Shown piece by piece: positions 9,443 to 37,551 of a DNA stretch of 64,000 nt. Position 1 is the first letter of the stretch, and the number at the start of each line of letters is the position of its first letter. Position numbers and translations under genes: made by a program. A model generated the notes under the pieces. The model was given only the letters and a program-made list of their open reading frames with translations, made no database searches and had not been told where the DNA came from. The stretch comes from Candidatus Amunia macphersoniae. Its GTDB lineage: Bacteria; Chloroflexota; Dormibacteria; Aeolococcales; Aeolococcaceae. The stretch lies in the NCBI GenBank assembly GCA_016464795.1, contig JAEKNN010000030.1:3328-67327 (forward strand), in the 5' to 3' direction.

Positions 9443-9754
9443 CTACGGCTTGTCGAAGATGTCGTGGCCACCGACGCGGCGCCAGCGGATCATCGGCTGG
9501 CCGTCGATGGTCCGCCATTCAAACGTGGCGCGACCGTCGGGGCCACTGAAACTCCAGGTCATCTCCATGATCCCAGCCGCTCCCTTGAGCGACTTCACCC
9601 TCAGTCCCCGCGGCCACGGGCGTATGGGGTCCTGGGCACGCGCATCACACGCAGGGATGAAGTGATCGTGCAGGGCCGTACGAAACAGCGCCTGCTCTCC
9701 GGCCGAGAGCCTCCGCCAGTCACCGTCGAAGGCCGGAGCGGTGCTGAACTTCAC
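9443..9754 (-). CDS. Putative RelE/ParE-fold toxin
   Basis: 103 aa; F..DWRRL, LRVKSLKG..GIMEMTW..DGRATF and WRRVGGHDIF. Start overlaps the antitoxin stop (GTGA). Confidence 0.65.
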   Translation of the reverse strand: MKFSTAPAFDGDWRRLSAGEQALFRTALHDHFIPACDARAQDPIRPWPRGLRVKSLKGAAGIMEMTWSFSGPDGRATFEWRTIDGQPMIRWRRVGGHDIFDKP

Positions 9755-10050
9755 CCGTGGTCGGTGGCGAGCTCGTCGAGGTGTGCCAGGAGGTCATCCC
9801 CGCTGTCGTGGACGATGCCACGACCGTCAGCGTACTGCTCGTCGACCTCCCGCTCCATCGCCTGCCAGCGCTTCGTCCAGAACCACGCCTGGTCAGCAGG
9901 AACGGTCACCACCGGATGGAGCTCGATCACCCCATCGTCTCGTTCAATCACCTCGACCTGGCTGCCAGGCTGGTCGAGATGGTGGCGCCGGCGGAGGTCG
10001 GGGGGCAACGCCACGGTCCCGCGCTTCTGGATGGTGAGGAACCGTTCCAT
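9751..10050 (-). CDS. AbrB/MazE/SpoVT family antitoxin
   Basis: IQKRGTVALPPDLRR..GVIELHPV swapped-hairpin motif, followed by DQAWFWTKRWQAMERE and an acidic tail. Confidence 0.85.
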   Translation of the reverse strand: MERFLTIQKRGTVALPPDLRRRHHLDQPGSQVEVIERDDGVIELHPVVTVPADQAWFWTKRWQAMEREVDEQYADGRGIVHDSGDDLLAHLDELATDHG

Positions 10051-24519: not shown

Positions 24520-25689
24520 TCATCGGCTGTCGGCCAGGGAGTCGAGAGCCGCGGTGACGCCGCCCGGCGTGGAGGGCACCGTCGACCGAGCCAGGCCCAT
24601 CTCCACCCCGCCGAGAGTGCCGATCAGCGACAACTCGTTGAGATGGCCGACGTGGCCGATGCGGAACACCCTGCCCGCCACCTTGCCCAACCCGGCCCCG
24701 AGTGACATGTCGAAATCGTCGAGGATCTGGGCCCGCAACTGGTCGGCGTCGTGACCATCCGGCAGGAGCACGGCGGTGACTACCGGGGAGTGTTCGCGTT
24801 GGTCCTGACAGAGCACCTCCAGGCTCCAGGCGCGCACCGCGCGGCGAGTGGCGTCGGCAAACCGTTGGTGGCGCGCGAACACGGCAGGCAGCCCCTCCTC
24901 CTCGAGCATGAGCAGCGCCTCACGCAACCCGTAGAGGAGGTTGGTCGGTGGCGTGTAGGGGAAGAACCCGCGGCTGTTGAACGCGAGTATCTGCGCCCAA
25001 TCCCAGTAGGAGCGCGCCATGCCGGCGGTCTGCGACGCTGCCAACGCCTTCTCACTCACCGCGTTGAAGCCGAGACCGGGGGGCAGCATCAACCCCTTCT
25101 GGGAGCCGCAGATGGTCACGTCGACGCCCCACTCGTCGTGCCGGTATTCGGTGGCGCCCACTGAGGAGACTCCGTCGACCATCAGCAAGGTGGGGTGACC
25201 GGCCTCATCGATGACGCGGCGGATCTCGGGGATGCGGCTGCAGATTCCTGTCGAGGTCTCGCTGTGGACCACCATCACCGCCCGGATGGTTCTGTGGGTG
25301 TCAGCCTCGAGCTCCGCCGCCAGAGCCTCCGGGGAAGCGCCGTGGCGCCAGTCGCCGGCAAGCGTGGTGACCTCCAGCCCGAGGTTGGCGGCCATGTCGC
25401 GCCAGAGCACGGCGAACTGGCCCGTCTCGAAGCACACGACCCGGTCGCCGGGTGACAGCGTGTTGACGATCGCCGCCTCCCAGGCGCCGGTGCCCGACGA
25501 GGGATACATGATCACCTGCCCCTGGGTCCCGAACGGCGTCCTGACCCGCTCGAGGAGATCGTGGACAAGTGCCGCGAACTCGGGTCCGCGATGGTCGATG
25601 GTGGGCATGGAGATGGCGCGCAGGACGCGGTCCGGCACGTTGGTGGGGCCGGGAATCTGCAGGAAGTGGCGGCCGGTGTGGGTTGTCAT
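24520..25689 (-). CDS. sgaA: Serine/alanine--glyoxylate aminotransferase (class V)
   Basis: GRHFLQIPGPTNVP, SSGTGAWEAA..NTLSPGD, HSETSTG, GSQKGLMLPPG and FRIGH motifs. Confidence 0.85.
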   Translation of the reverse strand: MTTHTGRHFLQIPGPTNVPDRVLRAISMPTIDHRGPEFAALVHDLLERVRTPFGTQGQVIMYPSSGTGAWEAAIVNTLSPGDRVVCFETGQFAVLWRDMAANLGLEVTTLAGDWRHGASPEALAAELEADTHRTIRAVMVVHSETSTGICSRIPEIRRVIDEAGHPTLLMVDGVSSVGATEYRHDEWGVDVTICGSQKGLMLPPGLGFNAVSEKALAASQTAGMARSYWDWAQILAFNSRGFFPYTPPTNLLYGLREALLMLEEEGLPAVFARHQRFADATRRAVRAWSLEVLCQDQREHSPVVTAVLLPDGHDADQLRAQILDDFDMSLGAGLGKVAGRVFRIGHVGHLNELSLIGTLGGVEMGLARSTVPSTPGGVTAALDSLADSR

Positions 25690-25754
25690 CCCTTGATCTT
25701 CACAGGCGGGACGAGCCACAGTGGCAACAGCGGCCCACCACCTATGCTCTGGGC

Positions 25755-27203
25755 ATGGACAGTGGCCTGGTCGCGGCCCTCGCCCGCGCGGTGCCGACGG
25801 GGGGCTTGATCACCGCGCCGGAGGCGTTGCGGACGTACGAATGTGACGGGCTGACCGGTCACCGTGTGGTTCCCTCCGCTGTCGTCCTTCCCGAGAGCAC
25901 AGACCAGGTGGCCGCCTGCGTGTCCGCTTGTCACCAGGCACGGGTTCCCTTCGTCGCGCGCGGCGCCGGCACCGGGCTCTCGGGCGGCGCTCTGCCGGTC
26001 GCCGATGGCGTGGTCATCTGTCTGACACGGATGCGCGCGATCCTCGATGTCGACATCCAGGGGCAGCGGGTCACCGTGCAGCCCGGCGTCGCCAACCTCC
26101 AGGTCAGCGACGCGGTTCGTGCCAACGGTCACTACTACGCGCCCGATCCCTCGAGCCAGTCCGTGTGCACCATCGGCGGCAACGTCGCCGAGAACTCGGG
26201 CGGCGCTCACTGCCTCAAGTACGGCTTCACCACCACTCACGTCGTCGGCGTCACCCTGGTCACCCCCGACGGCCGCGTCACCACGCTCGGTGGCGCCGTC
26301 GCGGATGCGCCTGGGTACGACCTGCTTGGCGTTGTTGTCGGCAGCGAAGGCACGCTCGGCATCGTCACCGAGGTGATCCTCAACATCATCCCCATCCCAG
26401 AGACGGTGCGCACCATGCTGTGCGGCTTCGCCTCGATGTCCGCGGCGGGCCTCGCGGTGTCGGCGATCATCGCCGAGGGAATCACCCCGGCGGCCATCGA
26501 GATGATGGACCGGCTCGCCATCGAGGCCGTCGAGGCGGCGGTGCACGCCGACTACCCTCGGTGCCAAGCGGTGCTGCTCGTCGAGCTCGACGGACCGCGG
26601 GCGGAGTGCGCCTCCACGTTTGCCCGCGTTGAGGAGATCTGCCGCCAGTCCGAGGCACAGGAAATTCGTGTCGCCGCCGATGCGTCACAGCGGGCGATGA
26701 TGTGGAGGGGACGTCGGGCAGCGTTCGCTGCCATGGGACGGATCAGCCCCGACTACTACGTGCAGGATGGGGTCATCCCACGCGGTCGCCTCGCCCCGGT
26801 TCTGGACGGCATCGCCGCCCTGGAGCAGGAATACGACCTGCGCGTGGCCAACGTCTTCCACGCGGGTGACGGCAACCTCCACCCCCTGGTGCTGTACACC
26901 GGCTCGCACCACGGCGAGGGCGACCGCGCGCTCGAGCTCGCCGGGCGCATCCTCGATCTGTGCCTCAGCGAAGGAGGCTCGATCACCGGTGAGCACGGCG
27001 TCGGGTCGGACAAGGCGTGCGCCATGCCCAAGATGTTCAGCGAGGGCGCTCTCGAGGTCTTCACCCGGGTTCGCGCCGCCTTCGATCCCGACGGAGTCTG
27101 CAATCCCGGCAAGGTGTTGCCGACACCGCGGCTGTGCGGGGAGGTGCCCGGACCGTACCGTCCGCATCCTCTCGAGATCGCCGGCGTGGCCACACGGATG
27201 TGA
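25755..27203 (+). CDS. glcD: Glycolate oxidase subunit GlcD
   Basis: YECDGL, RGAGTGLSGG, APDPSSQ..CTIGGNVAENSGGAHCLKYG, NVFHAGDGNLHP and GEHGVG motifs. Confidence 0.9.
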   Translation: MDSGLVAALARAVPTGGLITAPEALRTYECDGLTGHRVVPSAVVLPESTDQVAACVSACHQARVPFVARGAGTGLSGGALPVADGVVICLTRMRAILDVDIQGQRVTVQPGVANLQVSDAVRANGHYYAPDPSSQSVCTIGGNVAENSGGAHCLKYGFTTTHVVGVTLVTPDGRVTTLGGAVADAPGYDLLGVVVGSEGTLGIVTEVILNIIPIPETVRTMLCGFASMSAAGLAVSAIIAEGITPAAIEMMDRLAIEAVEAAVHADYPRCQAVLLVELDGPRAECASTFARVEEICRQSEAQEIRVAADASQRAMMWRGRRAAFAAMGRISPDYYVQDGVIPRGRLAPVLDGIAALEQEYDLRVANVFHAGDGNLHPLVLYTGSHHGEGDRALELAGRILDLCLSEGGSITGEHGVGSDKACAMPKMFSEGALEVFTRVRAAFDPDGVCNPGKVLPTPRLCGEVPGPYRPHPLEIAGVATRM

Positions 27204-28438
27204 GCACCGCAACTGCCATCGACGTTCTCCCCTTCGCGGCGCTGGTGGGTGAGGAGCACGCACTCGCCGCCCGAGCAGACGACACCGTGCAGGGGGTCTC
27301 GCCATCGCTCGTGGTCGAGCCGGCCGACGAGGCAGAGGTGTCGGCGGTGATGCGCGAGGCGTCGCGACAGCGGCTGACGGTGGTGGTCCGCGGCGGTGGA
27401 ACGACACTCGCCTGGGGAACGCCACCGCGACGCTGCGAGCTGCTGCTCTCGACACGCCGCCTCGACCGCCTGGTCGAGCATCAGCCTGGCGACCTGATCT
27501 GCGTCGCCGGCGCCGGGATGACCCTGGCGGCGTTGCAGGCTCACCTGGGACGCGCCCAGGGTCACCGCCAGCGGCTGATGCTCGATCCCCCGGTCCCGCC
27601 GGAAGTGGCCACACTTGGCGGTATCGTCGCCACCGGCTGCTCCGGGCCCCTGAGAACCCGCTACGGCACGGTGCGCGACCTGCTCATCGGGGTGCGCTTC
27701 GTCCTCGCCGACGGCACCGTCGGCCACGCCGGTGGGAAGGTGGTCAAGAACGTTGCCGGGTACGACATCGGCAAGCTCCTCACCGGTTCCCTGGGCACGC
27801 TGGCGGTGATCACCCAGGTGGCGCTGCGCCTTCATCCCGCGGCGCCGGACTCGCGCGTGGTGCTGCTCGACGACAGCACCCCGGAAGCGCTCGCCGCCAG
27901 GGTGCAGGGGCTGGCCCGCCTGCCGGTGACGCCGAGCTGCGTCGACGTCATCTGGCCCGACCGCACCTGCGCCGTCCGTGTCGACAGCTCGGCGGAGGGA
28001 GCCGAGCGGCAGGTGCAGATCATCGCCGCGCGCGTTGGTGGGCGCATCCTCGGTGAGGGGGAGGCGGCCGCGCTGAACTCGTCGCTGGCGCAACGGCCCT
28101 GGATGGGCGACGGCGTGGTCGCGGGCATCGCCGCCCCGCGCAGCCGGCTCGCGGAGCTGATCCGGCTGGCCGGCCGGCACGCCGACGAGGTGGTCGTCCG
28201 CGGGCTCATCGGCGTGGCCGAGGCGCGACTTGGCGCGGACCCGGCGCCCATCACCGCACTGCGCAACGGCGTGGAACAGCTCGGCGGCCACCTGGTGCTC
28301 CACCGATCGCCCCTCCCCCTACGCGACCTGGTCTGGCCCGCGGCGGCCGGGGCCGCGGTCGAGCTGATGCGCTCGGTCAAGCATGCGCTCGACCCCCAGG
28401 GCGTTCTCGCTCCCGGACGGCACCTGGGGGGCATCTGA
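27200..28438 (+). CDS. glcE: Glycolate oxidase FAD-binding subunit GlcE
   Basis: RGGGT, ATLGG, GP.R.RYG.VRD, GGKVVKNVAGYD..KL..GSLGTL and LDP.GVL.PGR motifs; GTGA overlap with glcD. Confidence 0.88.
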   Translation: MSTATAIDVLPFAALVGEEHALAARADDTVQGVSPSLVVEPADEAEVSAVMREASRQRLTVVVRGGGTTLAWGTPPRRCELLLSTRRLDRLVEHQPGDLICVAGAGMTLAALQAHLGRAQGHRQRLMLDPPVPPEVATLGGIVATGCSGPLRTRYGTVRDLLIGVRFVLADGTVGHAGGKVVKNVAGYDIGKLLTGSLGTLAVITQVALRLHPAAPDSRVVLLDDSTPEALAARVQGLARLPVTPSCVDVIWPDRTCAVRVDSSAEGAERQVQIIAARVGGRILGEGEAAALNSSLAQRPWMGDGVVAGIAAPRSRLAELIRLAGRHADEVVVRGLIGVAEARLGADPAPITALRNGVEQLGGHLVLHRSPLPLRDLVWPAAAGAAVELMRSVKHALDPQGVLAPGRHLGGI

Positions 28439-29781
28439 GTGTCGACCGCCTTCGACGATCACCACCCGCCGGCAGCCGATCTGATCGCCGATTGCGTCCA
28501 CTGCGGCTTCTGTCTGCCTGCCTGTCCCACCTACCAGCTCTGGGGCGAGGAGATGGACTCTCCGCGCGGGCGAATCCTTCTGATGGACGCGGCGCGCCGT
28601 GGCGAGGTGGACCTGAACGACACCGTCGTGCAGCACTGGGACGCGTGTCTGGGGTGCATGGCGTGCGAGACGGCGTGCCCGTCGGGGGTGCGCTACGGAC
28701 GCCTCATCGAGCAGACCAGACAGCAGGTGGAGCGCCGTTACCGCCGTCCCTGGCCAGAACGCATGTATCGCGCCGTCCTCTTCGCGATGCTGCCCTACCC
28801 GCTCCGCCTGCGCGTGGTCGCGCAGTTGCTGGCCCTCTACCAGGACAGCGGCGCGCGACGTGTGCTGCGCCGCTCAGGTGTCATTCGCAGACTTCCCCAA
28901 CGGCTCCGCGAGCTGGAGGCACTGGCACCGGCACTGAGTCGGCGCCGTCTCGAGGAGAGCCCGCCGGAAAGGTCCGCTGTGTCAGTGGGACGAGCGCGCC
29001 TTCGTGTCACGCTTCTGCGCGGCTGCGTCCAGCGGGCCTTCTTCGGCGACGTCAGCGCGGCGACGGCGCGCGTGCTGGCCGCCTTCGGCTGCGAGGTGAG
29101 CGCTCCCCGGCAGCAGGGGTGCTGCGGTGCGCTCGAGCTGCACAGTGGGCGCGAGCAGGCCGCGCTGGCCCGCGCACGCGCCCTGATCGCTGCACTGGAG
29201 GCCGGTGATCCTGACCGCATCGCAGTCGATTCGGCGGGTTGCGGCGCGTCGATGAAGGAGTACGGCGAACTGCTCGCGGACGACCCGATCTGGGCCGAGC
29301 GCGCCGCCGCCTTCTCCGCAAGGGTTCGCGACGTGTCGGAGATCCTCGACGAGTTGGGACCACCGGCACTCCCAATGCACCCCTTGCCGATGCGGCTGGC
29401 CTACCACGACGCGTGCCACCTCGCCCACGCCCAGAGGGTGCGCGCTCAACCGCGCCGAGCGCTCAGCGCCATCCCCGGTGTGGAGCTGATCCCACTTGAC
29501 GACGCGGATCTCTGCTGCGGCAGCGCCGGCGTCTACAACCTCGTGGAGCCAGGGCCGGCCGCCGATCTCGGACGGCGCAAGGCGGCATCCATCGCCACGG
29601 CCGCGCCGCAGGCACTGGCTGCAGGCAATCCCGGCTGCTTGCTGCAGATCGGCGCCCATCTGTCGCTCGCGGGACAGGCGATTCCCACCTTTCACCCGGT
29701 CGAGCTGCTCGACGCCTCGCTGCGCGGCATCCCCGTCGAACGGTTGCTCGCCGACCGCTCTCGTCTGCTGGCGATCGACCG

Positions 29782-29785
<4 letters not shown>
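28439..29785 (+). CDS. glcF: Glycolate oxidase iron-sulfur subunit GlcF
   Basis: [12 protein letters not shown] and [12 protein letters not shown] 4Fe-4S motifs, two CCG domains, YHDACHL. Confidence 0.9.
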
Positions 29786-31395
<1,610 letters not shown>

Positions 31396-33109
31396 GCACC
31401 AGGTAGGCCAGCAGCGCCAGGGTCCACGGCATGTTGTGCCGGATGATCGCGCCCTCGTTGCGCACGTAGCGGCTCGTCGACACCCCGACGCTCGCCGTCT
31501 GCGGGGCCACCGGCTTGCCCACCTCCGCTCCCACCGAGTTCAGTGAGGGAAGCAGCAGCAACGGGAAGTGGAGCAGCTTGCCGACGGTGTTCTGGAACGC
31601 CCCGAACAGCGCGTTGGTCGAGGTGTTGCTGCCCGAGAGGGCCACGCCGATCCAGCCGAGGATCGGGGCGATCAGGATGAACGCGGTGCCCGCCTTGGAG
31701 AAGGCGAACGCAAGTGAGTTGCCGAGCCCCCCGAAGGTGAAGACGAACGCCAGCCCGAAGATCAGCACGCCGACGATCAGCGCACCCCACATCTGGTGGA
31801 AGGTGCGTGACGCGACCTCACGGAACTGCCCGGCCGAGGGACGCAGCAAGAGCAGCATCACGATCCAGGCGCTGGCGATCGCTGTCCCGGCGATGAACGG
31901 GGTGAAGTTGAAGACCGAGACCACCGTCTTGCCTGTCACCGACGACACCGCGCTGACGCTGGCCTTGGCGAGGCTGTAGGCGGGCAGGCGCGACCAGGGA
32001 CCGGTCCAGGCGACCACCACCGCGATGAGCACCAGGAACGGAAGCACCGCTCCGACGATCTGACGGGTGGCCAGCGGCTCCTCGCGGGGGCGGGCGTCCT
32101 CGGAGATGGGCACCCCGCCATAGCCGAGCACGGTGCGCGGCCGCCAAACCCGCAGGAAGAGCAGGGTGACGGTGAACGCGGTCAGCGCGCCCACCACGTC
32201 GGGGAGGTAAGGGCCGAAGAACTGGGAGACCGGGAACTGCCCGAGGATGTACCCGAATGAACCCACTATCGCCAGGGGCCAGCCGTCGCGCAGGCCGCGC
32301 CGGCCGCTCACCAGGTAGATGAGGATCCATGGCGGCAGCAGCGCGAGCACCGCGACGATGCGGCCAATCGATGCCGTCAGCGCGTTGAGCGACAGTCCCG
32401 TGACCGCCGCCAAGGAGATGATCGGTGCGCCCAGCGCCCCGAATGACACAGGAGCGTTGTTGGCGATCGCGGCGACCCGGATGGCATCGATCTCGACCAC
32501 ACCGAGACTGACGAGAATCGGCGCCACCACCGCCCAGGGATAGCCGAACCCGACAAGTCCCTCCAGGAGCGCGCCGAACGCCCAGGCCAGCAGGATGGTC
32601 TGGACCCGGATGTCGGCGGTGGCCTGGGAGACCAGCCAGCGCTGAAACGTGGGGAACACGCCGGTGACCATCAGGGTGTTGAAGATCACCACCCCCCAGA
32701 GCGTGATCCAGTCGACGGCGATGAGGCCGGTGAGGGCGCCGTACAGGAACGACTTGGCGGTGAGGTCGGCCGGCGCCTCCCAGAACGTGATCGCCAGCCC
32801 AACCGTCACCGCGGCGCCGATGATCGTGGCCACCCAGGCGCTGAGGCGGAAGACGGCGAGCAGGACCAGCAACACGATCACCGGCACCAGCGCCACCAGC
32901 GCGGTCAGCGCGAGGTTGCGCGCGGGATCCAGCACCTGATGAAACGCGGCGACGACCATGTGGTCCTCTCGGGTTCGACTGCTGAGCGACGGGATGATAG
33001 CCCAGGGTCACGTGCTCCTACGTCCCGCCCGCCTGCGGCCCCCGATCGACCTGCGCGACGCCTCCGCCCGGCGTCTGCTTTGCAGCGGCTACCCGCCGCT
33101 GGCGTTCGG

Positions 33110-34105
33110 CTACTGAGAGGGGAGTGTCGCGAGATCCGCGACGCGGCGGAGAGGCGTCGGCCGCCCCGGCGCGCTGACGCTCGGCGACCGCCACTCGCCA
33201 GAGGCCAGCACGTGGTCGACGAACCGCCGCGCCATCGGCGGCAGGTCGAGCTGCCCAACCAGGTGAAAGGGCCTGCTCAAGGGCGTGCCGGGAAGCGGCA
33301 CCTCGACGAGGCGCCCGCCCGCCAGTTCGGAGACGACAGTCTCCCGAGCCACCAGAGTCGCGCCCAGCCCCGCGACCGCGCCGGCGATGACGGCGCCGTG
33401 GGAGCCGAGGGTGAGACAGGGCGCATCGTTGCCGAGGGAGTGGAGGATGCTCTCGAGGGTCGCCCGCATCCCACTGCCGGGCTCGCGGAGCAGCCAGGCC
33501 GTCTCGTGCCCGCGCACCCCGTGCCGTCCGGGTGTGGCGACGATGACGAGATCATTGGCATGCACTGCGTAGGTCACCATGCCGGAGTCCAGTGGAGGCC
33601 GGCCGGCAACCGCAAGGTCGACATGATGGCCGCGCAGCCGGCTCCACACCCTGTTGCGCGGCGCCACCTCCAGCTCGACACCGACGTCGGGCAGCAGCCC
33701 GCGGAAACCGGCGAGCAGGTCTGGTAGGTGAACCTCGGCGACGCTGCTGACGGCGGCGATCCGCAACCATCCGCGGTCCGGGCTCGCCTCGCCCAGGGCT
33801 GCCATCGCCGCCGCCTCGAGCTCGCCGAGCAGGTGCCGCACACGTTCCGCGTACCGGACCCCCGCCGGCGTGAGCCTGACCCCGCGACCCGCCCTCTCGA
33901 TGAGCGCAGCGCCGATCTGCCGCTGCAGCGAAGCGACCGACGCCGAGACGGCGGACTCTGTGACATTGAGCTGCTCGGCGCCGGCTCGGACTGAGCCGAG
34001 CTCGGCCACAGCTGCGAAGGTGCGCAGCTGTCCGGCCGTGACCGCGAGCACGCTGTTGCGCCGAGCCCGGGAGAGGCTCCCCAGCGGTGGGCTGTCCGAC
34101 GACAT
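33110..34105 (-). CDS. LysR family regulator, actinobacterial CbbR-like
   Basis: LysR HTH (GSVR..AEQL.VTESAVS..GRGVRLT), GEASPDRGWLRIAAV, AVAGRPP, WLLREPGSG.R, LTLGSHGAVIAGAVAGLG and PGTPL.RPFH, all resembling mycobacterial CbbR. Confidence 0.8.
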   Translation of the reverse strand: MSSDSPPLGSLSRARRNSVLAVTAGQLRTFAAVAELGSVRAGAEQLNVTESAVSASVASLQRQIGAALIERAGRGVRLTPAGVRYAERVRHLLGELEAAAMAALGEASPDRGWLRIAAVSSVAEVHLPDLLAGFRGLLPDVGVELEVAPRNRVWSRLRGHHVDLAVAGRPPLDSGMVTYAVHANDLVIVATPGRHGVRGHETAWLLREPGSGMRATLESILHSLGNDAPCLTLGSHGAVIAGAVAGLGATLVARETVVSELAGGRLVEVPLPGTPLSRPFHLVGQLDLPPMARRFVDHVLASGEWRSPSVSAPGRPTPLRRVADLATLPSQ

Positions 34106-34197
34106 GGGGCGATCATTTCAAATCCTCAACTTGGAGTCGAGCGAAATCGGTGGCGAGGTATGAGCCAGGGCTCAACGATCAGTGCAGACATTCTTGA

Positions 34198-34226
34198 TTG
34201 ACACCCTGCAGAGCCCTCCATAGGCT
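34198..34226 (+). promoter_or_regulatory. Sigma70-type promoter for the small-membrane-protein operon
   Basis: TTGACA (34198-34203), 17 nt, TAGGCT (34221-34226). An ATCA-N13-TGAT inverted repeat at 34178-34198 abuts the -35 and is a candidate LysR site. Confidence 0.7.
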
Positions 34227-34377
34227 TGCGCTGACCTGCATGCCCCGGTGAGCGACTCGTTGTCGGGGTCACGCGGGTTGGGCAGACAGCCCAAGCGCTG
34301 CCGGTCAGACACCAGTGCCGGCGCACAAGAGAGTCGAGGAAGGCGCGTCGGACCTCACCAATTGGGAGGAGAGCACG

Positions 34378-34686
34378 ATGACCGACGCTGGGGTGGTCCA
34401 CCGCTGGCTGCTGGGCTTGGCCGCGGCCCTGATCGTGGTCATCATCGCGGCAACGCTCGTCCTGGTGATCGTCAACCACGCCAGGGCGATCCTCGTCTCG
34501 GTGACCCGCAGCCGGCACGCGGTCTCGCGGGTTCACTCCAACGTCGCCGCCATCGCTGAGCTGGGAGCCGCAGCCACCACCACCGACCGCATCCTGGCCG
34601 GCGCGCTGGGCATCGAGGCCAAGGTCCACCTGGTCGCCGATGCCCTCGAGCGAACCAACGTGCCGGCCGGGCGGGGAGGGCGCTGA
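34378..34686 (+). CDS. Uncharacterised single-TM coiled-coil protein 1 (102 aa)
   Basis: RBS GGAGGAG; N-terminal TM WLLGLAAALIVVIIAATLVLVIV, then a heptad helix. Confidence 0.8.
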   Translation: MTDAGVVHRWLLGLAAALIVVIIAATLVLVIVNHARAILVSVTRSRHAVSRVHSNVAAIAELGAAATTTDRILAGALGIEAKVHLVADALERTNVPAGRGGR

Positions 34687-34688
34687 GC

Positions 34689-35066
34689 ATGCAGACGTCC
34701 GCGCAGAGCCAGCTGCTGTGGTGGCTGGCCCTCGCCACCGGGGCCCTGGTGATCATCGTCGTCGCCACCCTGTTGACGCTGGTGCTCACCGAGGCGAGCG
34801 CCATCGCTGAGGAAGCGCAGATCATCAGCCACAAGGCCAGGAGCGTCAGCCTCGCGACCATCAAGCTTCTCTACGCGCTCCGGATCAACTCCGCCCTCAC
34901 CGGCGTGGGCGACGGGGCCGGAGCCATCCTGCGCCAGGCGGGGCGTGTTGTTGTGCACGTGCAGTCGTGTCCCGGCTGCCCCAATTGCCGATCGCCGCGC
35001 GAGCTGCAGCCATCCGCTGTCAGGCCGAAGGGGCCGGGGCCGCCCGGCCCGTCGAGCTGGACATGA
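34689..35066 (+). CDS. Uncharacterised single-TM coiled-coil protein 2 with H-x3-CPGCPNC (125 aa)
   Basis: TM WWLALATGALVIIVVATLLTLVL; INSALT; HVQSCPGCPNC. Confidence 0.8.
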   Translation: MQTSAQSQLLWWLALATGALVIIVVATLLTLVLTEASAIAEEAQIISHKARSVSLATIKLLYALRINSALTGVGDGAGAILRQAGRVVVHVQSCPGCPNCRSPRELQPSAVRPKGPGPPGPSSWT

Positions 35067-35347
35067 TCGTTCTGCTCATGGTGCTCACTGCCCTCTTGAC
35101 AGTCGTGTTCTTCGTCGTGCTGCTGCGCTTCCTAGCGGCCATTGCCGCCCGCCTGCACTCGATCGGCGGCTCCTTGGGGCAGATCAACGTTGAGGTAGCA
35201 GGCGTCCAGGGACACACCTCCTTCATCACACCGGAGCTGACCAAGCTCAACAACGGGCTCGGCAGTGCCAACGCGGGCCTGGCCGCCGTCGACGGCGGTC
35301 TGGTCGCTCTGGCGGAAGCGGCCGTCGCCCAGAGGGGATACCGATGA
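35063..35347 (+). CDS. Uncharacterised single-TM coiled-coil protein 3 (94 aa)
   Basis: ATGA overlap; TM followed by ...VQGHTSFITPELTKLNNGL. Confidence 0.8.
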   Translation: MIVLLMVLTALLTVVFFVVLLRFLAAIAARLHSIGGSLGQINVEVAGVQGHTSFITPELTKLNNGLGSANAGLAAVDGGLVALAEAAVAQRGYR

Positions 35348-35664
35348 TCGCCGACGACGGGCAGTACACAGCAGTCCTGGTGATCTGGACGCTCCTTCTC
35401 GTTCTGGTGGTGCTCGTGCTGCTCCCGGCCAGCCTGTTGGCGGCGGCCCGCCTGGTCAGGTCTGCGCGCAGGGTCGACGCACGGTTGGCCGCGACCCTGA
35501 AGGCCGCGACGGCCATCGTCGACAACACCGCACCCACCCGCGGCCTGCTCGATACGACCATCCGGTCGGCCAGCGACGTGCTGGCGACTGTGCGCGGCAT
35601 CGACCAGCACGCCGGCGCCACCGAGGGCGTCCTGGTCAGGCGTGCCGCCGGCGCGAAGTCGTGA
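35344..35664 (+). CDS. Uncharacterised single-TM coiled-coil protein 4 (106 aa)
   Basis: ATGA overlap; TM followed by ...AIVDNTAPTRGLL. Confidence 0.8.
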   Translation: MIADDGQYTAVLVIWTLLLVLVVLVLLPASLLAAARLVRSARRVDARLAATLKAATAIVDNTAPTRGLLDTTIRSASDVLATVRGIDQHAGATEGVLVRRAAGAKS

Positions 35665-35951
35665 GCCTCGACAGCTGGGACAGCGTTCTGACGATCGTTT
35701 CGATGGTCGTCGCCTCGATCCTTGCCATCGTGCTGGCGGTCACCCTGGTGTTGACCGCCGCGGCCCTTGGACGGGTCCGCCGCGCGGCTGCGCAGCTCCC
35801 CGGCGGGCTCGAGGCCGCCGCCGACAACACCGCCAGCCTGCCCGACCAGATCCCCACCATCAACAGCGCCTTGACCGCCATCCAGGATGGCCTCGACTCC
35901 GTCGACACCAGCGTCCTCGGCATCGCGCGCGCCTACGGCCTGGTGCGCTGA
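35661..35951 (+). CDS. Uncharacterised single-TM coiled-coil protein 5 (96 aa)
   Basis: GTGA overlap; TM followed by ...AAADNTASLPDQIPTINSALT. Confidence 0.8.
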   Translation: MSLDSWDSVLTIVSMVVASILAIVLAVTLVLTAAALGRVRRAAAQLPGGLEAAADNTASLPDQIPTINSALTAIQDGLDSVDTSVLGIARAYGLVR

Positions 35952-35961
35952 GGGTGACGCC

Positions 35962-37551
35962 ATGACTCGTCGCGCGGAGCGCAATTTCAACACGTTGTCC
36001 TGGTCAGTGGTGGTGTTCGTCGGCCTGGTCGTGATCACGCTCGTCCTGGCGCTGCAGCTCTTTCCCCGCCTGAGCAGCGGCCAGCGGGTCCTCGACGGCG
36101 CGCGTCCCGCATTCACCGACGAGCGCGTCGCCGGCGACGTCGCAGGAGTCAAGATGGTGTCGAACATCGTCGACCTCGCCGACCCGCTGGTCAGGGATCC
36201 GCGGACAGCGCCCGAGGTCACCGGGCTCATCGCCTATGTGTCACAGCAGACCGGCCTTCCCCAAGCTGCTGTTGTCAGCGCGCTGCAATCCAAGTTCCCC
36301 CACTCGTTGGCACTGCTGCAGGCGATCCCACTGCAATCGGTCAGCGCTGAGCTCCCTCAGCTGATCGCGTTCGTGGCGAGCCATTCCACGCTCACACCCG
36401 TGGCTCTCCTCGCCGCCCTCAACCAGAACTTCCCTCACCTCGCCCAAGCGATCAATGCCCTGCCACGCATGACCTCAGGCTGGAACAACGTACCGGGCAC
36501 GGCTGGCGTGACCCGGTTCGACGGCTCGCCGGTGACCACCGTCCCGCAGGTGCGCGACTACCTTGCCGGCGATGTGGTCGGCGCTGTCCAGAGCCAGCGG
36601 GCCAACTTCCAGACGCTGGACCGCACCTCGCCCGGGCTTGTTGTCATCCCCGCGGTGCTGCTGGCGATCGGGATCATCGCCACCCTGTACGGACTGGTGA
36701 TGCTTCTGGCCCTGCGGCGGGTCGGGGTGCTCGATACGGGCAGCCGTGAGCGCCGGCTCACACTGGGCGCGTGGGCAGTCGTCGGCGTGGTCGGGATCAT
36801 CGTGCTCGCGCTCGTCCCCATCTGGTCTCTGGTCGGGCGTCTCGACGCCGGCCAGTCAGTGCTCGACAACCTCCGGCCCGCATTCACCGACGCCCGAGTC
36901 GCGGGCGATGCGGCCGGCGTGAGCATGGTCTCGACCATCGTCGACGTGGCCGATCCGATCGTCCTCGAGTCGGGTGGAGCCGCCTCCGAGGTGCCCAAAC
37001 TGGTGAGCTTCGTGGCCACGGCCACGGGTTTGTCTGCTGCCCAGGTCCTGTCTGCCATCCAGCAGAACTTCCCCCACGTCTACGGGCTGCTCAACGCCAT
37101 CCCGCTGGAGTCGGTCACTGCCGAGCAGTCTGGGCTGACCACCTTCCTGACCACCACTTTGAAGATCACGCCCGACCAGTTGAACGCCGCCCTGCAGAAG
37201 AATTTCCCGCAGATCGCACAGAGCCTGGCGGTGCTCCCTGCGGTCACCGCCGGATGGGCCAACGTGCCCGGTACCCAGAATCTCACAAGGTTCGACGGGA
37301 CCCCGGTGCGATCGGTGACGCAGGTGCGCAACTACTTCGCGCTCGACGTGGTTCCGGCTCTGCAGACGACGCGAGCCGACTTTCAACGGCTCGATGGTTT
37401 GCCGCCGCCGGTCACCTGGGTCCCGCCACTTCTCCTCATCGCCGGTGGCCTCGTCCTCTACTACTCCCTGGTGATGATGTACATCTGGCGGCCTCGACCG
37501 CGAGGCTCGCCGGCGGTCGATAGGTCCGCCAATCGGGCACCTGCAGCGTAG
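35962..37551 (+). CDS. Uncharacterised 4-TM membrane protein made of two tandem TM-loop-TM modules (529 aa)
   Basis: Two ~250-aa repeats share GQxVLD..RPAFTDxRVAGD.AGV.MVS.IVD.ADP, FPH..L.AIPL.SV.AE and GW.NVPGT..TRFDG.PV..V.QVR.Y. Confidence 0.85.
   Translation: MTRRAERNFNTLSWSVVVFVGLVVITLVLALQLFPRLSSGQRVLDGARPAFTDERVAGDVAGVKMVSNIVDLADPLVRDPRTAPEVTGLIAYVSQQTGLPQAAVVSALQSKFPHSLALLQAIPLQSVSAELPQLIAFVASHSTLTPVALLAALNQNFPHLAQAINALPRMTSGWNNVPGTAGVTRFDGSPVTTVPQVRDYLAGDVVGAVQSQRANFQTLDRTSPGLVVIPAVLLAIGIIATLYGLVMLLALRRVGVLDTGSRERRLTLGAWAVVGVVGIIVLALVPIWSLVGRLDAGQSVLDNLRPAFTDARVAGDAAGVSMVSTIVDVADPIVLESGGAASEVPKLVSFVATATGLSAAQVLSAIQQNFPHVYGLLNAIPLESVTAEQSGLTTFLTTTLKITPDQLNAALQKNFPQIAQSLAVLPAVTAGWANVPGTQNLTRFDGTPVRSVTQVRNYFALDVVPALQTTRADFQRLDGLPPPVTWVPPLLLIAGGLVLYYSLVMMYIWRPRPRGSPAVDRSANRAPAA

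What the first reader, a model, noticed from the sequence alone, without database searches (positions are those of the whole stretch)
34178..37551. Uncharacterised operon of five paralogous single-TM coiled-coil proteins plus a duplicated 4-TM protein: candidate new membrane complex
Seen: five consecutive 94-125 aa ORFs, tightly linked (one 2-nt gap, then three ATGA/GTGA overlaps). Each has one N-terminal TM helix and a ~60-aa heptad helix. They share motifs: INSALT in ORFs 2 and 5, DNTA in ORFs 4 and 5, and corresponding HTS/LNNGL and SNVA segments in ORFs 3 and 1. A 529-aa two-module membrane protein follows. The unit has a TTGACA-N17-TAGGCT promoter and is divergent from a CbbR-like LysR gene. 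No enzyme or ATPase motif is present. Inference: coupled, diverged paralogs suggest a fixed-stoichiometry hetero-oligomeric helical bundle (stalk, tunnel or pore) docking on the large protein. The neighbours raise the possibility of a role in C1/CO2, gas or small-solute handling. I know of no characterised system with this layout.
Basis: partly seen in the sequence, partly recalled or inferred. Interest (0 to 1): 0.85.

Follow-up and report, generated by a model that had tools for sequence, protein, structure and literature searches.

The report
Uncharacterised membrane module linked to CO-dehydrogenase
Six adjacent genes encode five small membrane-anchored helical proteins and one large duplicated membrane protein that fit no described family; in many soil bacteria the same gene set sits inside the operon for the enzyme that oxidises carbon monoxide, so it may be an unrecognised membrane partner of that enzyme.

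Summary
Six tightly linked + strand genes (O1-O5 of 94-125 aa, O6 of 529 aa) lie at 34378-37551, divergent from a LysR gene. None matches Pfam, NCBIfam, PDB sequences or a solved fold.

O6 is a confidently modelled all-helical 4-TM protein made of two modules that are 51% identical. The five small proteins are not five equal paralogs. They are orthologs of five distinct conserved subunits, A to E. A/B(/D) form one super-class and C/E another. Their cyclic order A-B-C-D-E held in 40 of 40 informative related loci.

The main new result concerns context. Of 19 distinct metagenome locus groups with at least 2.5 kb on both sides, 15 carry small subunits. Eleven of these lie directly beside form-I CO dehydrogenase genes (coxMSL, coxG, coxI). 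One further locus lies inside a NiFe-hydrogenase/hyp cluster.

The window's own copy belongs to a deep, cox-unlinked lineage that keeps the LysR gene. The genome's cox operon is on another contig.

Best reading (about 0.35): a heteromeric membrane scaffold that couples quinone-reducing trace-gas dehydrogenases to the membrane. Physical assembly is not shown. I found no description in print.

The parts
33110..34105 (-). Divergent LysR-family regulator, probably the module's own regulator in this lineage
   Evidence: HTH_1 + LysR_substrate. It is 74% identical to the LysR in the same divergent position in L008, whereas none of the other five window flanking proteins queried matched L008. CbbR model: 140 bits against a cut-off of 450.
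34198..34226 (+). Candidate promoter: TTGACA, 17-nt spacer, TAGGCT
   Evidence: Read. A similar sequence stands before the L008 operon. Not called by the E. coli-type consensus scan. The TANNNT -10 rule for actinobacteria is recalled, not tested.
34378..34686 (+). O1 = subunit A (102 aa, N-terminal TM plus helical part)
   Evidence: hhalign gives 95% probability to class A2 and 71% to A1. Alignment A5.
34689..35066 (+). O2 = subunit B (125 aa, TM plus helical part, with a C-terminal tail)
   Evidence: hhalign gives 92% to B2 and 70% to B1. The A2 class model also hits this frame, one of only two hits in the whole genome.
34968..34988 (+). C-x2-C-x2-C motif (CPGCPNC, residues 94-100 of O2), specific to this lineage
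   Evidence: Present in the window and as CAGCPGC and CQGCPKC in L008 and L010. Absent from the class B proteins printed from cox-linked loci.
35063..35347 (+). O3 = subunit C (94 aa)
   Evidence: hhalign gives 93% to C2, 94% to O5 and 88% to E. The class profile matches designed antiparallel coiled coils.
35344..35664 (+). O4 = subunit D (106 aa)
   Evidence: hhalign gives 90% to D2 and 51% to D1. Heptad periodicity z 5.3.
35661..35951 (+). O5 = subunit E (96 aa, GTG start; lacks the tail of about 110 aa seen in type-1 cox-linked E)
   Evidence: hhalign gives 95% to E. The E class model hits only this frame among 33,029 frames of the genome. Heptad periodicity z 8.7.
35962..37551 (+). O6: 529-aa 4-TM protein of two homologous modules (TM, about 200-aa all-helical domain, TM)
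   Evidence: (pLDDT 93.9, pTM 0.88).

Best explanation
The six genes encode a conserved, so far undescribed heteromeric membrane module.

Composition:
- Five different single-pass proteins, subunits A-E (here O1-O5). Each is anchored by an N-terminal TM helix and carries a helical, largely coiled-coil segment of about 60 residues. This segment most likely faces the cytoplasm.
- One 4-TM protein, O6, with two large all-helical domains that most likely face outward.

Proposed function: a membrane scaffold that holds soluble, quinone-reducing trace-gas dehydrogenases at the membrane and so couples them to the quinone pool. The main client would be form-I Mo-Cu CO dehydrogenase with its quinone shuttle CoxG; in some lineages it would be NiFe hydrogenase. 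The window carries a deep-branching version that has left the cox operon, has lost or never had the long tail of subunit E, has gained a CxxCxxC tail on subunit B, and is probably controlled by the divergent LysR.

Shown: the genes, their conservation, their order, their families' isolation, and the linkage to cox and hyp genes.

Inferred: the assembly into one complex, the topology, and the docking function.
For: (1) The module is real and conserved.
- O6 has 347 relatives at E<=1e-3 among the 8000 candidates scored.
- 79 distinct metagenome loci were fetched. With L002 and L007 this makes 81 loci in 68 distinct groups.
- 42 of the 68 groups carry small-subunit ORFs in the DNA held. Among groups with at least 2.5 kb on both sides, 15 of 19 do.

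(2) There are five distinct orthologous subunits. hhalign gives O1-A2 95%, O2-B2 92%, O3-C2 93%, O4-D2 90% and O5-E 95%. The cyclic order A-B-C-D-E held in 40 of 40 loci with two or more classes called. Four gene layouts occur: ABCDE-6, 6-ABCDE, EDCBA<->6 and DE-ABC-6.

(3) The detection is specific. Class models built without the window lineage hit only two of the 33,029 open frames of 50 aa or more in the genome. Both are in this cluster.

(4) Linkage to CO dehydrogenase.
- Pfam confirms CoxM, CoxS, CoxL, CoxG and CoxI(XdhC+YHS) next to the module.
- 15 large ORFs in the loci carry AYRCSFR and none carries a form-II-type motif.
- 11 of the 19 well-flanked groups have cox genes, and all 11 have small subunits. 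No group has cox genes without small subunits (0 of 68).
- The linkage survives in three different layouts that sit in separate O6 clades.
- Gaps are operon-like: E to coxM is 15 nt in L036, and coxG overlaps D by 4 nt in L025.

(5) One ABCDE-6 locus (L010) lies between a NiFe-hydrogenase small subunit gene and hypC/hypD/hypF genes.

(6) Same side as the enzyme. Basic residues follow the TM in O1 and O4 and in classes A, C, D and E. Type-1 E carries a conserved basic tail of about 110 aa.

(7) The CoxG proteins encoded directly upstream of subunit D have no predicted TM helix. M. smegmatis CoxG has its own C-terminal TM helix (PMC12202499, legend of Extended Data Fig. 6, seen as a passage).

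(8) The C and E profiles match designed antiparallel coiled-coil bundles, E 5e-10 and 2e-5. This fits bundle-forming subunits.
Against: - No physical evidence of assembly or of contact with CODH exists.
- In the window the module is not next to cox genes. The genome's cox operon, including coxG, is on contig C42.
- Twelve of 60 relatives have a CoxL at least 61% identical to this genome's. None of them had an O6 match. The one other O6 carrier, G014 (54% complete, unpublished), had no CoxL match. CODH therefore does not need the module in this order.
- Four of the 19 well-flanked groups have O6 with neither small subunits nor cox genes (L007, L046, L055, L083).
- In two Mycobacteriaceae plasmids an O6 homolog lies near an mce operon, in pELW1-1 directly at its end, without small subunits.
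- Most of O6's mass is predicted to lie outside the cell, which a cytoplasmic docking site does not explain.
- I noted no cofactor or quinone-binding motif in the sequences and alignments I read. The TM helices look purely hydrophobic.
- M. smegmatis CODH is reported to work through CoxG, and that paper mentions no such proteins (passages seen).
- The loci come from a pattern-based scan biased to O6 relatives and are not independent samples.
Confidence: 0.35

Rival explanations
1. Metal or cofactor supply for metalloenzyme maturation. The module would take up or hand over a metal (Cu or Mo for CODH, Ni or Fe for hydrogenase) to cytoplasmic insertion factors.
For: - In the DE-ABC-6 layout the module follows coxI, which is an XdhC-type protein carrying a YHS domain.
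- In L010 it lies among hyp maturation genes and is flanked by two CbiA/CooC-type P-loop NTPases.
- Such NTPases also sit next to the 6/ED layout in L009, L059 and L076.
- Both O6 modules keep an invariant R, E, H, E, W, Y set in the outward domain.
- The window lineage adds a CxxCxxC tail to subunit B.
Against: - The nine TM helices show no conserved polar or charged residues that could line an ion path.
- No known transporter or metallochaperone family is hit.
- The window genome has no CbiA-type homolog of the L010 ATPases.
- Metal-binding roles for YHS and for the conserved residues are recalled or inferred, not tested.
Confidence: 0.2
2. A general envelope or membrane-lipid accessory module. 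O6 would act as a scaffold for lipid-handling machines such as Mce transporters. The module would be co-regulated with starvation enzymes but would play no direct part in CO oxidation.
For: - O6 homologs (37-39% identity) lie near mce operons on plasmids of Mycolicibacterium chubuense NBB4 and Mycobacterium sp. ELW1. In pELW1-1 the homolog lies directly at the operon's end.
- O6 occurs without cox genes in several loci.
- The best, though weak, Foldseek rows for O6 are TTYH proteins, one entry being titled 'in complex with lipids'.
- The module is patchy among relatives that have CoxL.
Against: - Small subunits were never seen with the mycobacterial O6 homologs, so that context may concern O6 alone.
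- Operon-level coupling to coxMSL and coxG in three layouts is hard to explain by co-regulation alone.
- The TTYH matches have E about 1e-2 and TM-scores of 0.2 or less.
Confidence: 0.15
3. A transmembrane sensor. O6's outward domains would sense a signal and the small coiled-coil proteins would pass it to the cytoplasm to control cox or hyd expression or activity.
For: - The architecture pairs large outward domains with cytoplasmic coiled coils.
- The class C profile has weak rows for methyl-accepting chemotaxis proteins, E 0.01.
- A LysR regulator is kept beside the module in the window and in L008.
Against: - No kinase, HAMP, cyclase, MHYT or other output domain is found in any of the six proteins.
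- Five separate conserved subunits are unusual for a sensor.
- The MCP rows rank below matches to designed coiled coils and probably reflect heptad composition only.
Confidence: 0.1
4. The genes are neighbours but do not form one complex. They would be independent small membrane proteins, or O6 would act alone.
For: O6 occurs alone in some loci. A D-E pair occurs without A-C (L009, L059, L076).
Against: Fixed subunit order in 40 of 40 loci, 4-nt overlaps, and retention of all five classes across O6 proteins only 45-55% identical.
Confidence: 0.08

Closest known systems
Accessory genes of aerobic CO dehydrogenase (cox) clusters: CoxG, and the membrane proteins CoxB/C/H/K of Oligotropha carboxidovorans (the latter recalled from Santiago et al. 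1999, which I saw only as a reference)
   Same: Non-catalytic genes encoded in the same operon as coxMSL. CoxG links the enzyme to the membrane and to menaquinone (abstract and passages of PMC12202499). In the DE-ABC-6 layout the module follows coxG directly.
   Different: No sequence or family relation. No COXG, MHYT or other Pfam domain is found in any of the six proteins. The module is six proteins, five of them single-pass. The window copy is not in a cox cluster.
HucM stalk of the mycobacterial Huc hydrogenase (recalled; no sequence at hand)
   Same: The idea of a helical, membrane-associated scaffold that connects a soluble trace-gas oxidising enzyme to membrane quinone. One module locus lies in a NiFe-hydrogenase cluster.
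   Different: Homology was not tested. PDB-wide profile searches with O6, A, C and E returned no hydrogenase chain. HucM is a single protein, not a six-gene set.
Mce transporters and their accessory membrane proteins (Mam/Mas, LucA; roles recalled)
   Same: Several paralogous N-terminally anchored proteins with helical parts plus accessory multi-pass proteins. O6 homologs sit near mce operons on two mycobacterial plasmids, in pELW1-1 directly at the operon's end.
   Different: No MCE/MlaD domain or other hit. No small subunits in the mce loci. No mce genes next to the window cluster. Any relation to LucA could not be tested.
Four-TM bundle proteins (TTYH, sarcospan, MARVEL/synaptophysin, pannexin/connexin/LRRC8, CD20, claudin)
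   Same: O6's four TM helices superpose as a four-helix bundle: VIA Z 12.3, rmsd 3.5 over 150 residues for sarcospan. TTYH gives the top Foldseek rows.
   Different: The scores are within the range that unrelated helical bundles reach, according to the tool's own notes. The ectodomain alone has no match above Z 7.0 and no Foldseek row below E 1. There is no sequence relation.
Designed antiparallel coiled-coil bundles (sc-apCC-4/6) and natural coiled coils
   Same: The class C and E profiles match them at E 5e-10 and 2e-5 over about 55 residues. This shows a canonical heptad pattern.
   Different: The likeness is one of composition and periodicity, not descent. The natural proteins also have a TM anchor and class-specific conserved motifs.

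Membership tests
Form-I cox (Mo-Cu CO dehydrogenase) gene cluster | Lies in one cluster with coxM, coxS and coxL carrying the AYxCSFR active-site loop (motif meaning recalled) | tested here: not met
   The window has no cox genes within about 6 kb of the module. The genome's cox operon (CoxL AYACSFR, coxG) is on contig C42. The feature is met in related loci: 11 of 19 well-flanked groups.
MCE / Mce-associated proteins | MCE (MlaD) domain, or a position inside a yrbE-mce operon | tested here: not met
   No Pfam or NCBIfam hit for any of the six proteins. No mce genes flank the window cluster. Only distant O6 homologs on two mycobacterial plasmids lie near mce operons.
Tweety (TTYH, PF04906) | Match to the Pfam model and the shared fold | tested here: inconclusive
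   O6 has no Tweety row. O1 has a chance-level row: E 0.1, 11.7 bits against a cut-off of 31.8. Foldseek gives E about 1e-2, probability 0.69-0.85 and TM-scores of 0.20 or less.
YhgE/Pip-type xxxLxxG heptad repeat (TIGR03057) | Score over the model's cut-off | tested here: not met
   O3: E 0.36, 11.2 bits against 18.6.
DUF948-type single-TM helical proteins (a lead from memory) | Match to the Pfam model | tested here: not met
   No such row at E<=1 for O1-O5 or for ten small subunits from L036 and L050. A profile-profile comparison was not done.
MHYT-domain membrane proteins (CoxC/CoxH type; recalled) | MHYT domain | tested here: not met
   No MHYT row for any of the six proteins at E<=1.
LysR family / CbbR | HTH_1 plus LysR substrate domain; for CbbR, a score over the equivalog cut-off | tested here: met
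   The LysR family is met: E 5.8e-19 and 1.8e-31. CbbR is not met: 140.3 bits against a cut-off of 450.
HucM-like hydrogenase stalk | Sequence or fold relation to HucM | tested here: inconclusive
   PDB profile searches with O6, A, C and E listed no hydrogenase chain. No direct comparison was possible because no HucM sequence was at hand.

The most novel reading that the evidence does not exclude
The A-E + O6 module is a new respiratory accessory complex of soil Actinomycetota and allied phyla. It would be a heteromeric membrane platform, with pseudo-twofold make-up (A/B, C/E and the two O6 modules as old duplicates, D unpaired). It would physically dock Mo-Cu CO dehydrogenase with CoxG, and in some lineages NiFe hydrogenase, and so feed electrons from trace gases into the quinone pool. 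The LysR-controlled version in this window would be a re-purposed offshoot serving a different, unknown client enzyme.
Probability: 0.3. Interest if true: 0.9.

Novelty: categorically new. Interest (0 to 1): 0.78.

Why it matters
Atmospheric CO oxidation by Mo-Cu CO dehydrogenase is said to remove about 250 million tonnes of CO a year (abstract of the Kropp et al. preprint, seen in the listing). How the soluble enzyme meets the respiratory chain has only just begun to be answered, through CoxG.

A six-gene membrane module that sits in operon-like spacing with coxMSL or coxG in many uncultured soil lineages, and belongs to no described family, is a concrete and testable candidate for a missing part of that link. 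It may instead be a missing part of enzyme maturation.

It also adds two or more new protein families. One is a confidently modelled duplicated 4-TM protein whose ectodomain has no recognisable fold. The others are five small coiled-coil membrane proteins. The work also yields a rule, the fixed A-B-C-D-E order, for finding the module in genomes.

Tried and rejected
Searches that found nothing:
- Pfam and NCBIfam scans of O1-O6, of small subunits from L036 and L050, of the L036 O6 homolog, and of ten single-module or weak O6 relatives. The only row was a sub-threshold DUF6463 match on one weak relative.
- The PDB sequence profile search with O6.
- Foldseek and VIA searches. The whole O6 model gave only generic 4-TM bundles, with TTYH at E about 1e-2. 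The ectodomain model (pLDDT 84.8) gave nothing above Z 7.0.
- The ESM Atlas listed only 'hypothetical protein' clusters.
- A full HMMER search of 1.84 billion representatives with the ectodomain profile found 145 proteins at E<=1e-3. Pfam named no family for the ten of them that I scanned.
- tblastn of type-1 subunit E against plasmids gave no match.

Complex prediction with O6 + O1 + O3 + O5 (collected) returned 'no answer' (score 0.00, controls not run). This is no evidence either way. Only four of the six chains could be sent.

The look-up of sequencing runs listed no RNA holder.

Literature: three searches and passages of PMC12202499 gave no description of these proteins. Supplementary tables of that paper, including its gene-cluster table, could not be seen and may bear on this.

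Ideas dropped:
- Type IV pilin-like or pseudopilin set. By eye I saw no pilin-type leader in the sequences; this was not tested with a model.
- Tat, ATP-synthase b or FtsL-like proteins. No family hits.
- The idea that the module tracks CODH in this order of bacteria. Rejected.

Full report
WHAT IS IN THE WINDOW

- O1 34378-34686 (102 aa)
- O2 34689-35066 (125 aa)
- O3 35063-35347 (94 aa)
- O4 35344-35664 (106 aa)
- O5 35661-35951 (GTG start, 96 aa)
- O6 35962-37551 (529 aa)

The junctions are a 2-nt gap followed by ATGA, ATGA and GTGA overlaps. Third-position GC is 0.82-0.90. Each small protein has one N-terminal hydrophobic segment, and O6 has four.

The two halves of O6 are 51% identical over 240 residues, E 9e-71. 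A 3.5-residue hydrophobic periodicity after the TM is strong in O5 and O4, modest in O3 and O2, and not significant in O1.

The divergent gene 33110-34105 is a LysR-family regulator. 'CbbR-like' holds only loosely: 140 bits against a cut-off of 450. TTGACA-N17-TAGGCT stands at 34198-34226. The E. coli-type scan does not call it, but a similar sequence precedes the orthologous operon in L008.

NO KNOWN FAMILY

None of the six proteins reaches any Pfam or NCBIfam model. The same is true of small subunits taken from two related loci and of the L036 O6 homolog.

With a 118-sequence alignment, O6 folds with pLDDT 93.9 and pTM 0.88 into an all-helical protein. Foldseek against the PDB finds nothing at E<=1e-3; the top rows are TTYH proteins at E about 1e-2 with TM-scores of 0.2 or less. 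An exhaustive structural search gives only generic four-TM bundles: sarcospan Z 12.3, then synaptophysin, LRRC8, pannexins, connexins, CD20 and a designed claudin fold. This is within the range the tool reports for unrelated helical bundles.

The ectodomain folded alone (pLDDT 84.8) has no match above Z 7.0 and no Foldseek row below E 1. PDB sequence profiles give nothing for O6 or class A.

Classes C and E match designed antiparallel coiled-coil bundles at E 5e-10 and 2e-5. I read this as a canonical heptad pattern, not descent.

A full HMMER search of 1.84 billion representative proteins with the ectodomain profile finds only 145 proteins at E<=1e-3. Both two-module proteins (about 500-540 aa) and single-module proteins (about 260-350 aa) are among them. 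Pfam names no family for the ten of them that I scanned. The ESM Atlas lists only 'hypothetical protein' clusters from Actinomycetota.

THE ARRAY IS CONSERVED, AND ITS MEMBERS ARE FIVE DIFFERENT SUBUNITS

O6 has 347 relatives at E<=1e-3 among the 8000 candidates scored. All of the 120 listed are unnamed or named uninformatively. They come from MAGs labelled Mycobacteriales, Solirubrobacterales, Thermoleophilaceae, Acidimicrobiales, Actinomycetota and Dormibacteraeota.

The family is rare near the window's own genome, a 2.9-Mb, 72-contig assembly that is 91% complete:
- 2 of 61 relatives have it. The second is the unpublished G014.
- Only the window's genome matches strongly among 401 genomes sampled over the phylum.

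A metagenome scan gave 79 distinct loci. In these, open frames related to O1-O5 lie beside the O6 homolog.

Clustering and profile-profile comparison separate five classes. The window proteins map one to one:

| Window protein | Best class | hhalign probability |
|---|---|---|
| O1 | A2 | 95% |
| O2 | B2 | 92% |
| O3 | C2 | 93% |
| O4 | D2 | 90% |
| O5 | E | 95% |

A and B are related to each other (A2-B2 95%). C and E are related to each other (C1-E 94%, O3-O5 94%). D is only loosely tied to B. Most comparisons between the A/B group and the C/E group score under 35%, the highest being A2-O5 at 69%. 'Five paralogs' is therefore only partly right.

As a specificity control, class models built without the window lineage were run against all 33,029 open frames of 50 aa or more in this genome. 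They hit only two frames, both in this cluster: E on O5 at 1.4e-4 and A2 on O2 at 2.5e-5.

In all 40 loci where two or more classes were called, the order along the direction of transcription follows the cycle A-B-C-D-E. Four layouts occur:
- ABCDE-6 (the window, L008, L010)
- 6-ABCDE (most loci)
- EDCBA divergent from 6
- DE-ABC-6

A reduced layout has only D-E next to O6 (L009, L059, L076).

The 81 loci with an O6 homolog collapse to 68 distinct groups. Of these, 42 hold small-subunit frames in the DNA held. Among the 19 groups with at least 2.5 kb on both sides, 15 do. One of these, L045, rests on weaker calls.

THE CONTEXT ELSEWHERE: CO DEHYDROGENASE

The genes that recur next to the module are CoxM, CoxS, CoxL, CoxG and an XdhC-type CoxI with a YHS domain, all confirmed by Pfam. 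Fifteen large ORFs in the loci carry AYRCSFR, and none carries a form-II-type motif. That this loop marks form-I enzymes is recalled knowledge.

Eleven of the 19 well-flanked groups have cox genes, and all eleven have small subunits. No group has cox genes without small subunits. The four groups with O6 alone have no coxM, coxS, coxL or coxG match.

The linkage is kept in three layouts: 6-ABCDE-coxMSL, coxLSM<-EDCBA | 6, and coxL-coxI-coxG-DE-ABC-6. These fall in different O6 clades.

The spacing is operon-like. E to coxM is 15 nt in L036, and coxG overlaps D by 4 nt in L025.

In the 6-ABCDE and divergent layouts, subunit E carries a conserved basic tail of about 110 residues. This tail is missing in the window, L008, L010, the DE-ABC-6 loci and the D-E-only loci.

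The CoxG proteins encoded just upstream of D have no predicted TM helix and end in an amphipathic basic segment. M. smegmatis CoxG is described with a C-terminal TM helix (PMC12202499, figure legend seen).

OTHER CONTEXTS

- L010 has the same ABCDE-6 layout as the window. It lies between a NiFe-hydrogenase small-subunit gene and hypC, hypD and hypF genes, and is flanked by two CbiA/CooC-type P-loop NTPases.
- Such NTPases also sit next to the D-E-only layout. The window genome has none of that type.
- O6 homologs of 37-39% identity lie on plasmids of Mycolicibacterium chubuense NBB4 and Mycobacterium sp. ELW1. The ELW1 copy sits directly after an mce operon, and neither has small subunits.
- L007 (a Mycobacteriales MAG) and L002 (G014) also have O6 alone.

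THE WINDOW'S OWN LINEAGE

The window and L008 (O6 63% identical) share the divergent LysR (74% identical), while none of the other five window flanking proteins queried matched L008. LysR plus module therefore looks like one unit there.

In a module tree this lineage branches deep and is not nested among the cox-linked clades. The tree used midpoint rooting and FastTree, and its support values were not inspected.

The genome has a cox operon with CoxL (AYACSFR), coxS, an XdhC-type gene, two further ORFs that I took for coxD and coxE by eye, and coxG, on contig C42.

Twelve of 60 relatives have a CoxL at least 61% identical to this genome's, yet none of them had an O6 match. In this order of bacteria CODH does not depend on the module.

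The window lineage has a CxxCxxC tail on subunit B that the class B proteins printed from cox-linked loci lack.

HOW IT MOST LIKELY WORKS

Shown:
- Six conserved genes with a fixed subunit order.
- Translational coupling between them.
- Two old duplications among the small subunits, beside a duplicated O6.
- Repeated operon-level linkage to form-I CODH genes, and one linkage to a hydrogenase cluster.

Inferred:
- The six proteins form one complex.
- The helical parts of A-E face the cytoplasm. Basic residues follow the TM in O1 and O4 and in classes A, C, D and E, and type-1 E has a basic tail.
- O6 has its N terminus, middle loop and C terminus inside and its two domains of about 200 residues outside.

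My preferred reading (0.35) is a membrane scaffold that holds CODH with CoxG, or a hydrogenase, at the membrane. The window copy would be an offshoot serving the same enzyme in trans or another client.

The main rival (0.2) is a role in metal or cofactor supply. It is favoured by the CoxI-YHS, hyp and CooC-type neighbours, by the invariant R/E/H/E/W/Y set of both ectodomains, and by the Cys tail of O2. It is weakened by purely hydrophobic TM helices.

Further rivals are a general envelope or lipid accessory role (0.15), a sensor (0.1), and no common complex (0.08).

NOVELTY

I found no family, solved structure or paper that covers these proteins. The family and structure checks are. The literature searches were made, with passages of PMC12202499. 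Supplements were not seen.

The nearest known things are functional analogies (CoxG, HucM, Mce accessory proteins), not relatives. I therefore rate the module as categorically new in kind, with its function still open.

Noticed in passing
G000 contig C42, about 37.4-46.6 kb (not in the window): The genome's cox operon, on the - strand: an XdhC-like gene, coxS, coxL (AYACSFR), a second XdhC-like gene, two ORFs that I took for coxD (AAA) and coxE (VWA) by eye only, and coxG. It is not linked to the window module.
   Followed up: partly
L010:870-13526: The ABCDE-6 module lies inside a NiFe-hydrogenase cluster: a small-subunit gene, two CbiA/CooC-type NTPases flanking the module, then HypD, HypC, a HypC-SIS fusion and HypF.
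   Followed up: partly
L088:289-13497 (pELW1-1) and L087 (pMYCCH.01): A distant O6 homolog is the last gene after a complete mce operon and Mce-associated genes on a plasmid of Mycobacterium sp. ELW1. A second lies a few kb from mce genes on the M. chubuense NBB4 plasmid. No small subunits were found in either locus.
   Followed up: partly
L036:8603-9226, L035:3870-4505 and other type-1 loci: Subunit E of cox-linked 6-ABCDE loci has a conserved basic C-terminal tail of about 110 aa, with blocks such as RIGEVYT.GTLTLARLGREAP and SPVIG.DAP.QYEQR.DIG.PRKR. It is absent from all other layouts.
   Followed up: partly
O6 modules in L009, L025, L050, L055, L087/L088 compared with the main cox clade (tree): In several lineages the two modules of one protein are each other's closest relatives. 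In the main clade all first modules and all second modules form separate groups. This points to repeated duplication or to gene conversion between modules.
   Followed up: no
L025:2656-3711, L015:1366-2484: The XdhC-type CoxI next to the module carries a C-terminal YHS domain.
   Followed up: no
window 25569-32959: Upstream genes look by eye like glycolate-oxidase-type subunits, a malate synthase (29782-31395) and a lactate-permease-type transporter (31349-32959, - strand). These names rest on my reading of the translations and were not checked by a family scan.
   Followed up: no
window 9443-10050 (- strand): Two small overlapping ORFs (103 and 99 aa) that look like a toxin-antitoxin pair. 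The upstream one resembles an AbrB/SpoVT-type antitoxin by eye. Not checked.
   Followed up: no
L046:7664-12676 and L052:1354-6366: A 1671-aa ORF directly follows an O6 homolog that has no small subunits. It was not examined.
   Followed up: no
Alignment A5 (class A): Class A proteins of cox-linked loci are almost invariant over the last 30 or so residues (QTAELGGIARINDSGVRILHAARSLRKVAVGK). All class A proteins, including O1, have a glycine at the second-to-last position (VGK, LGG, GGR).
   Followed up: no
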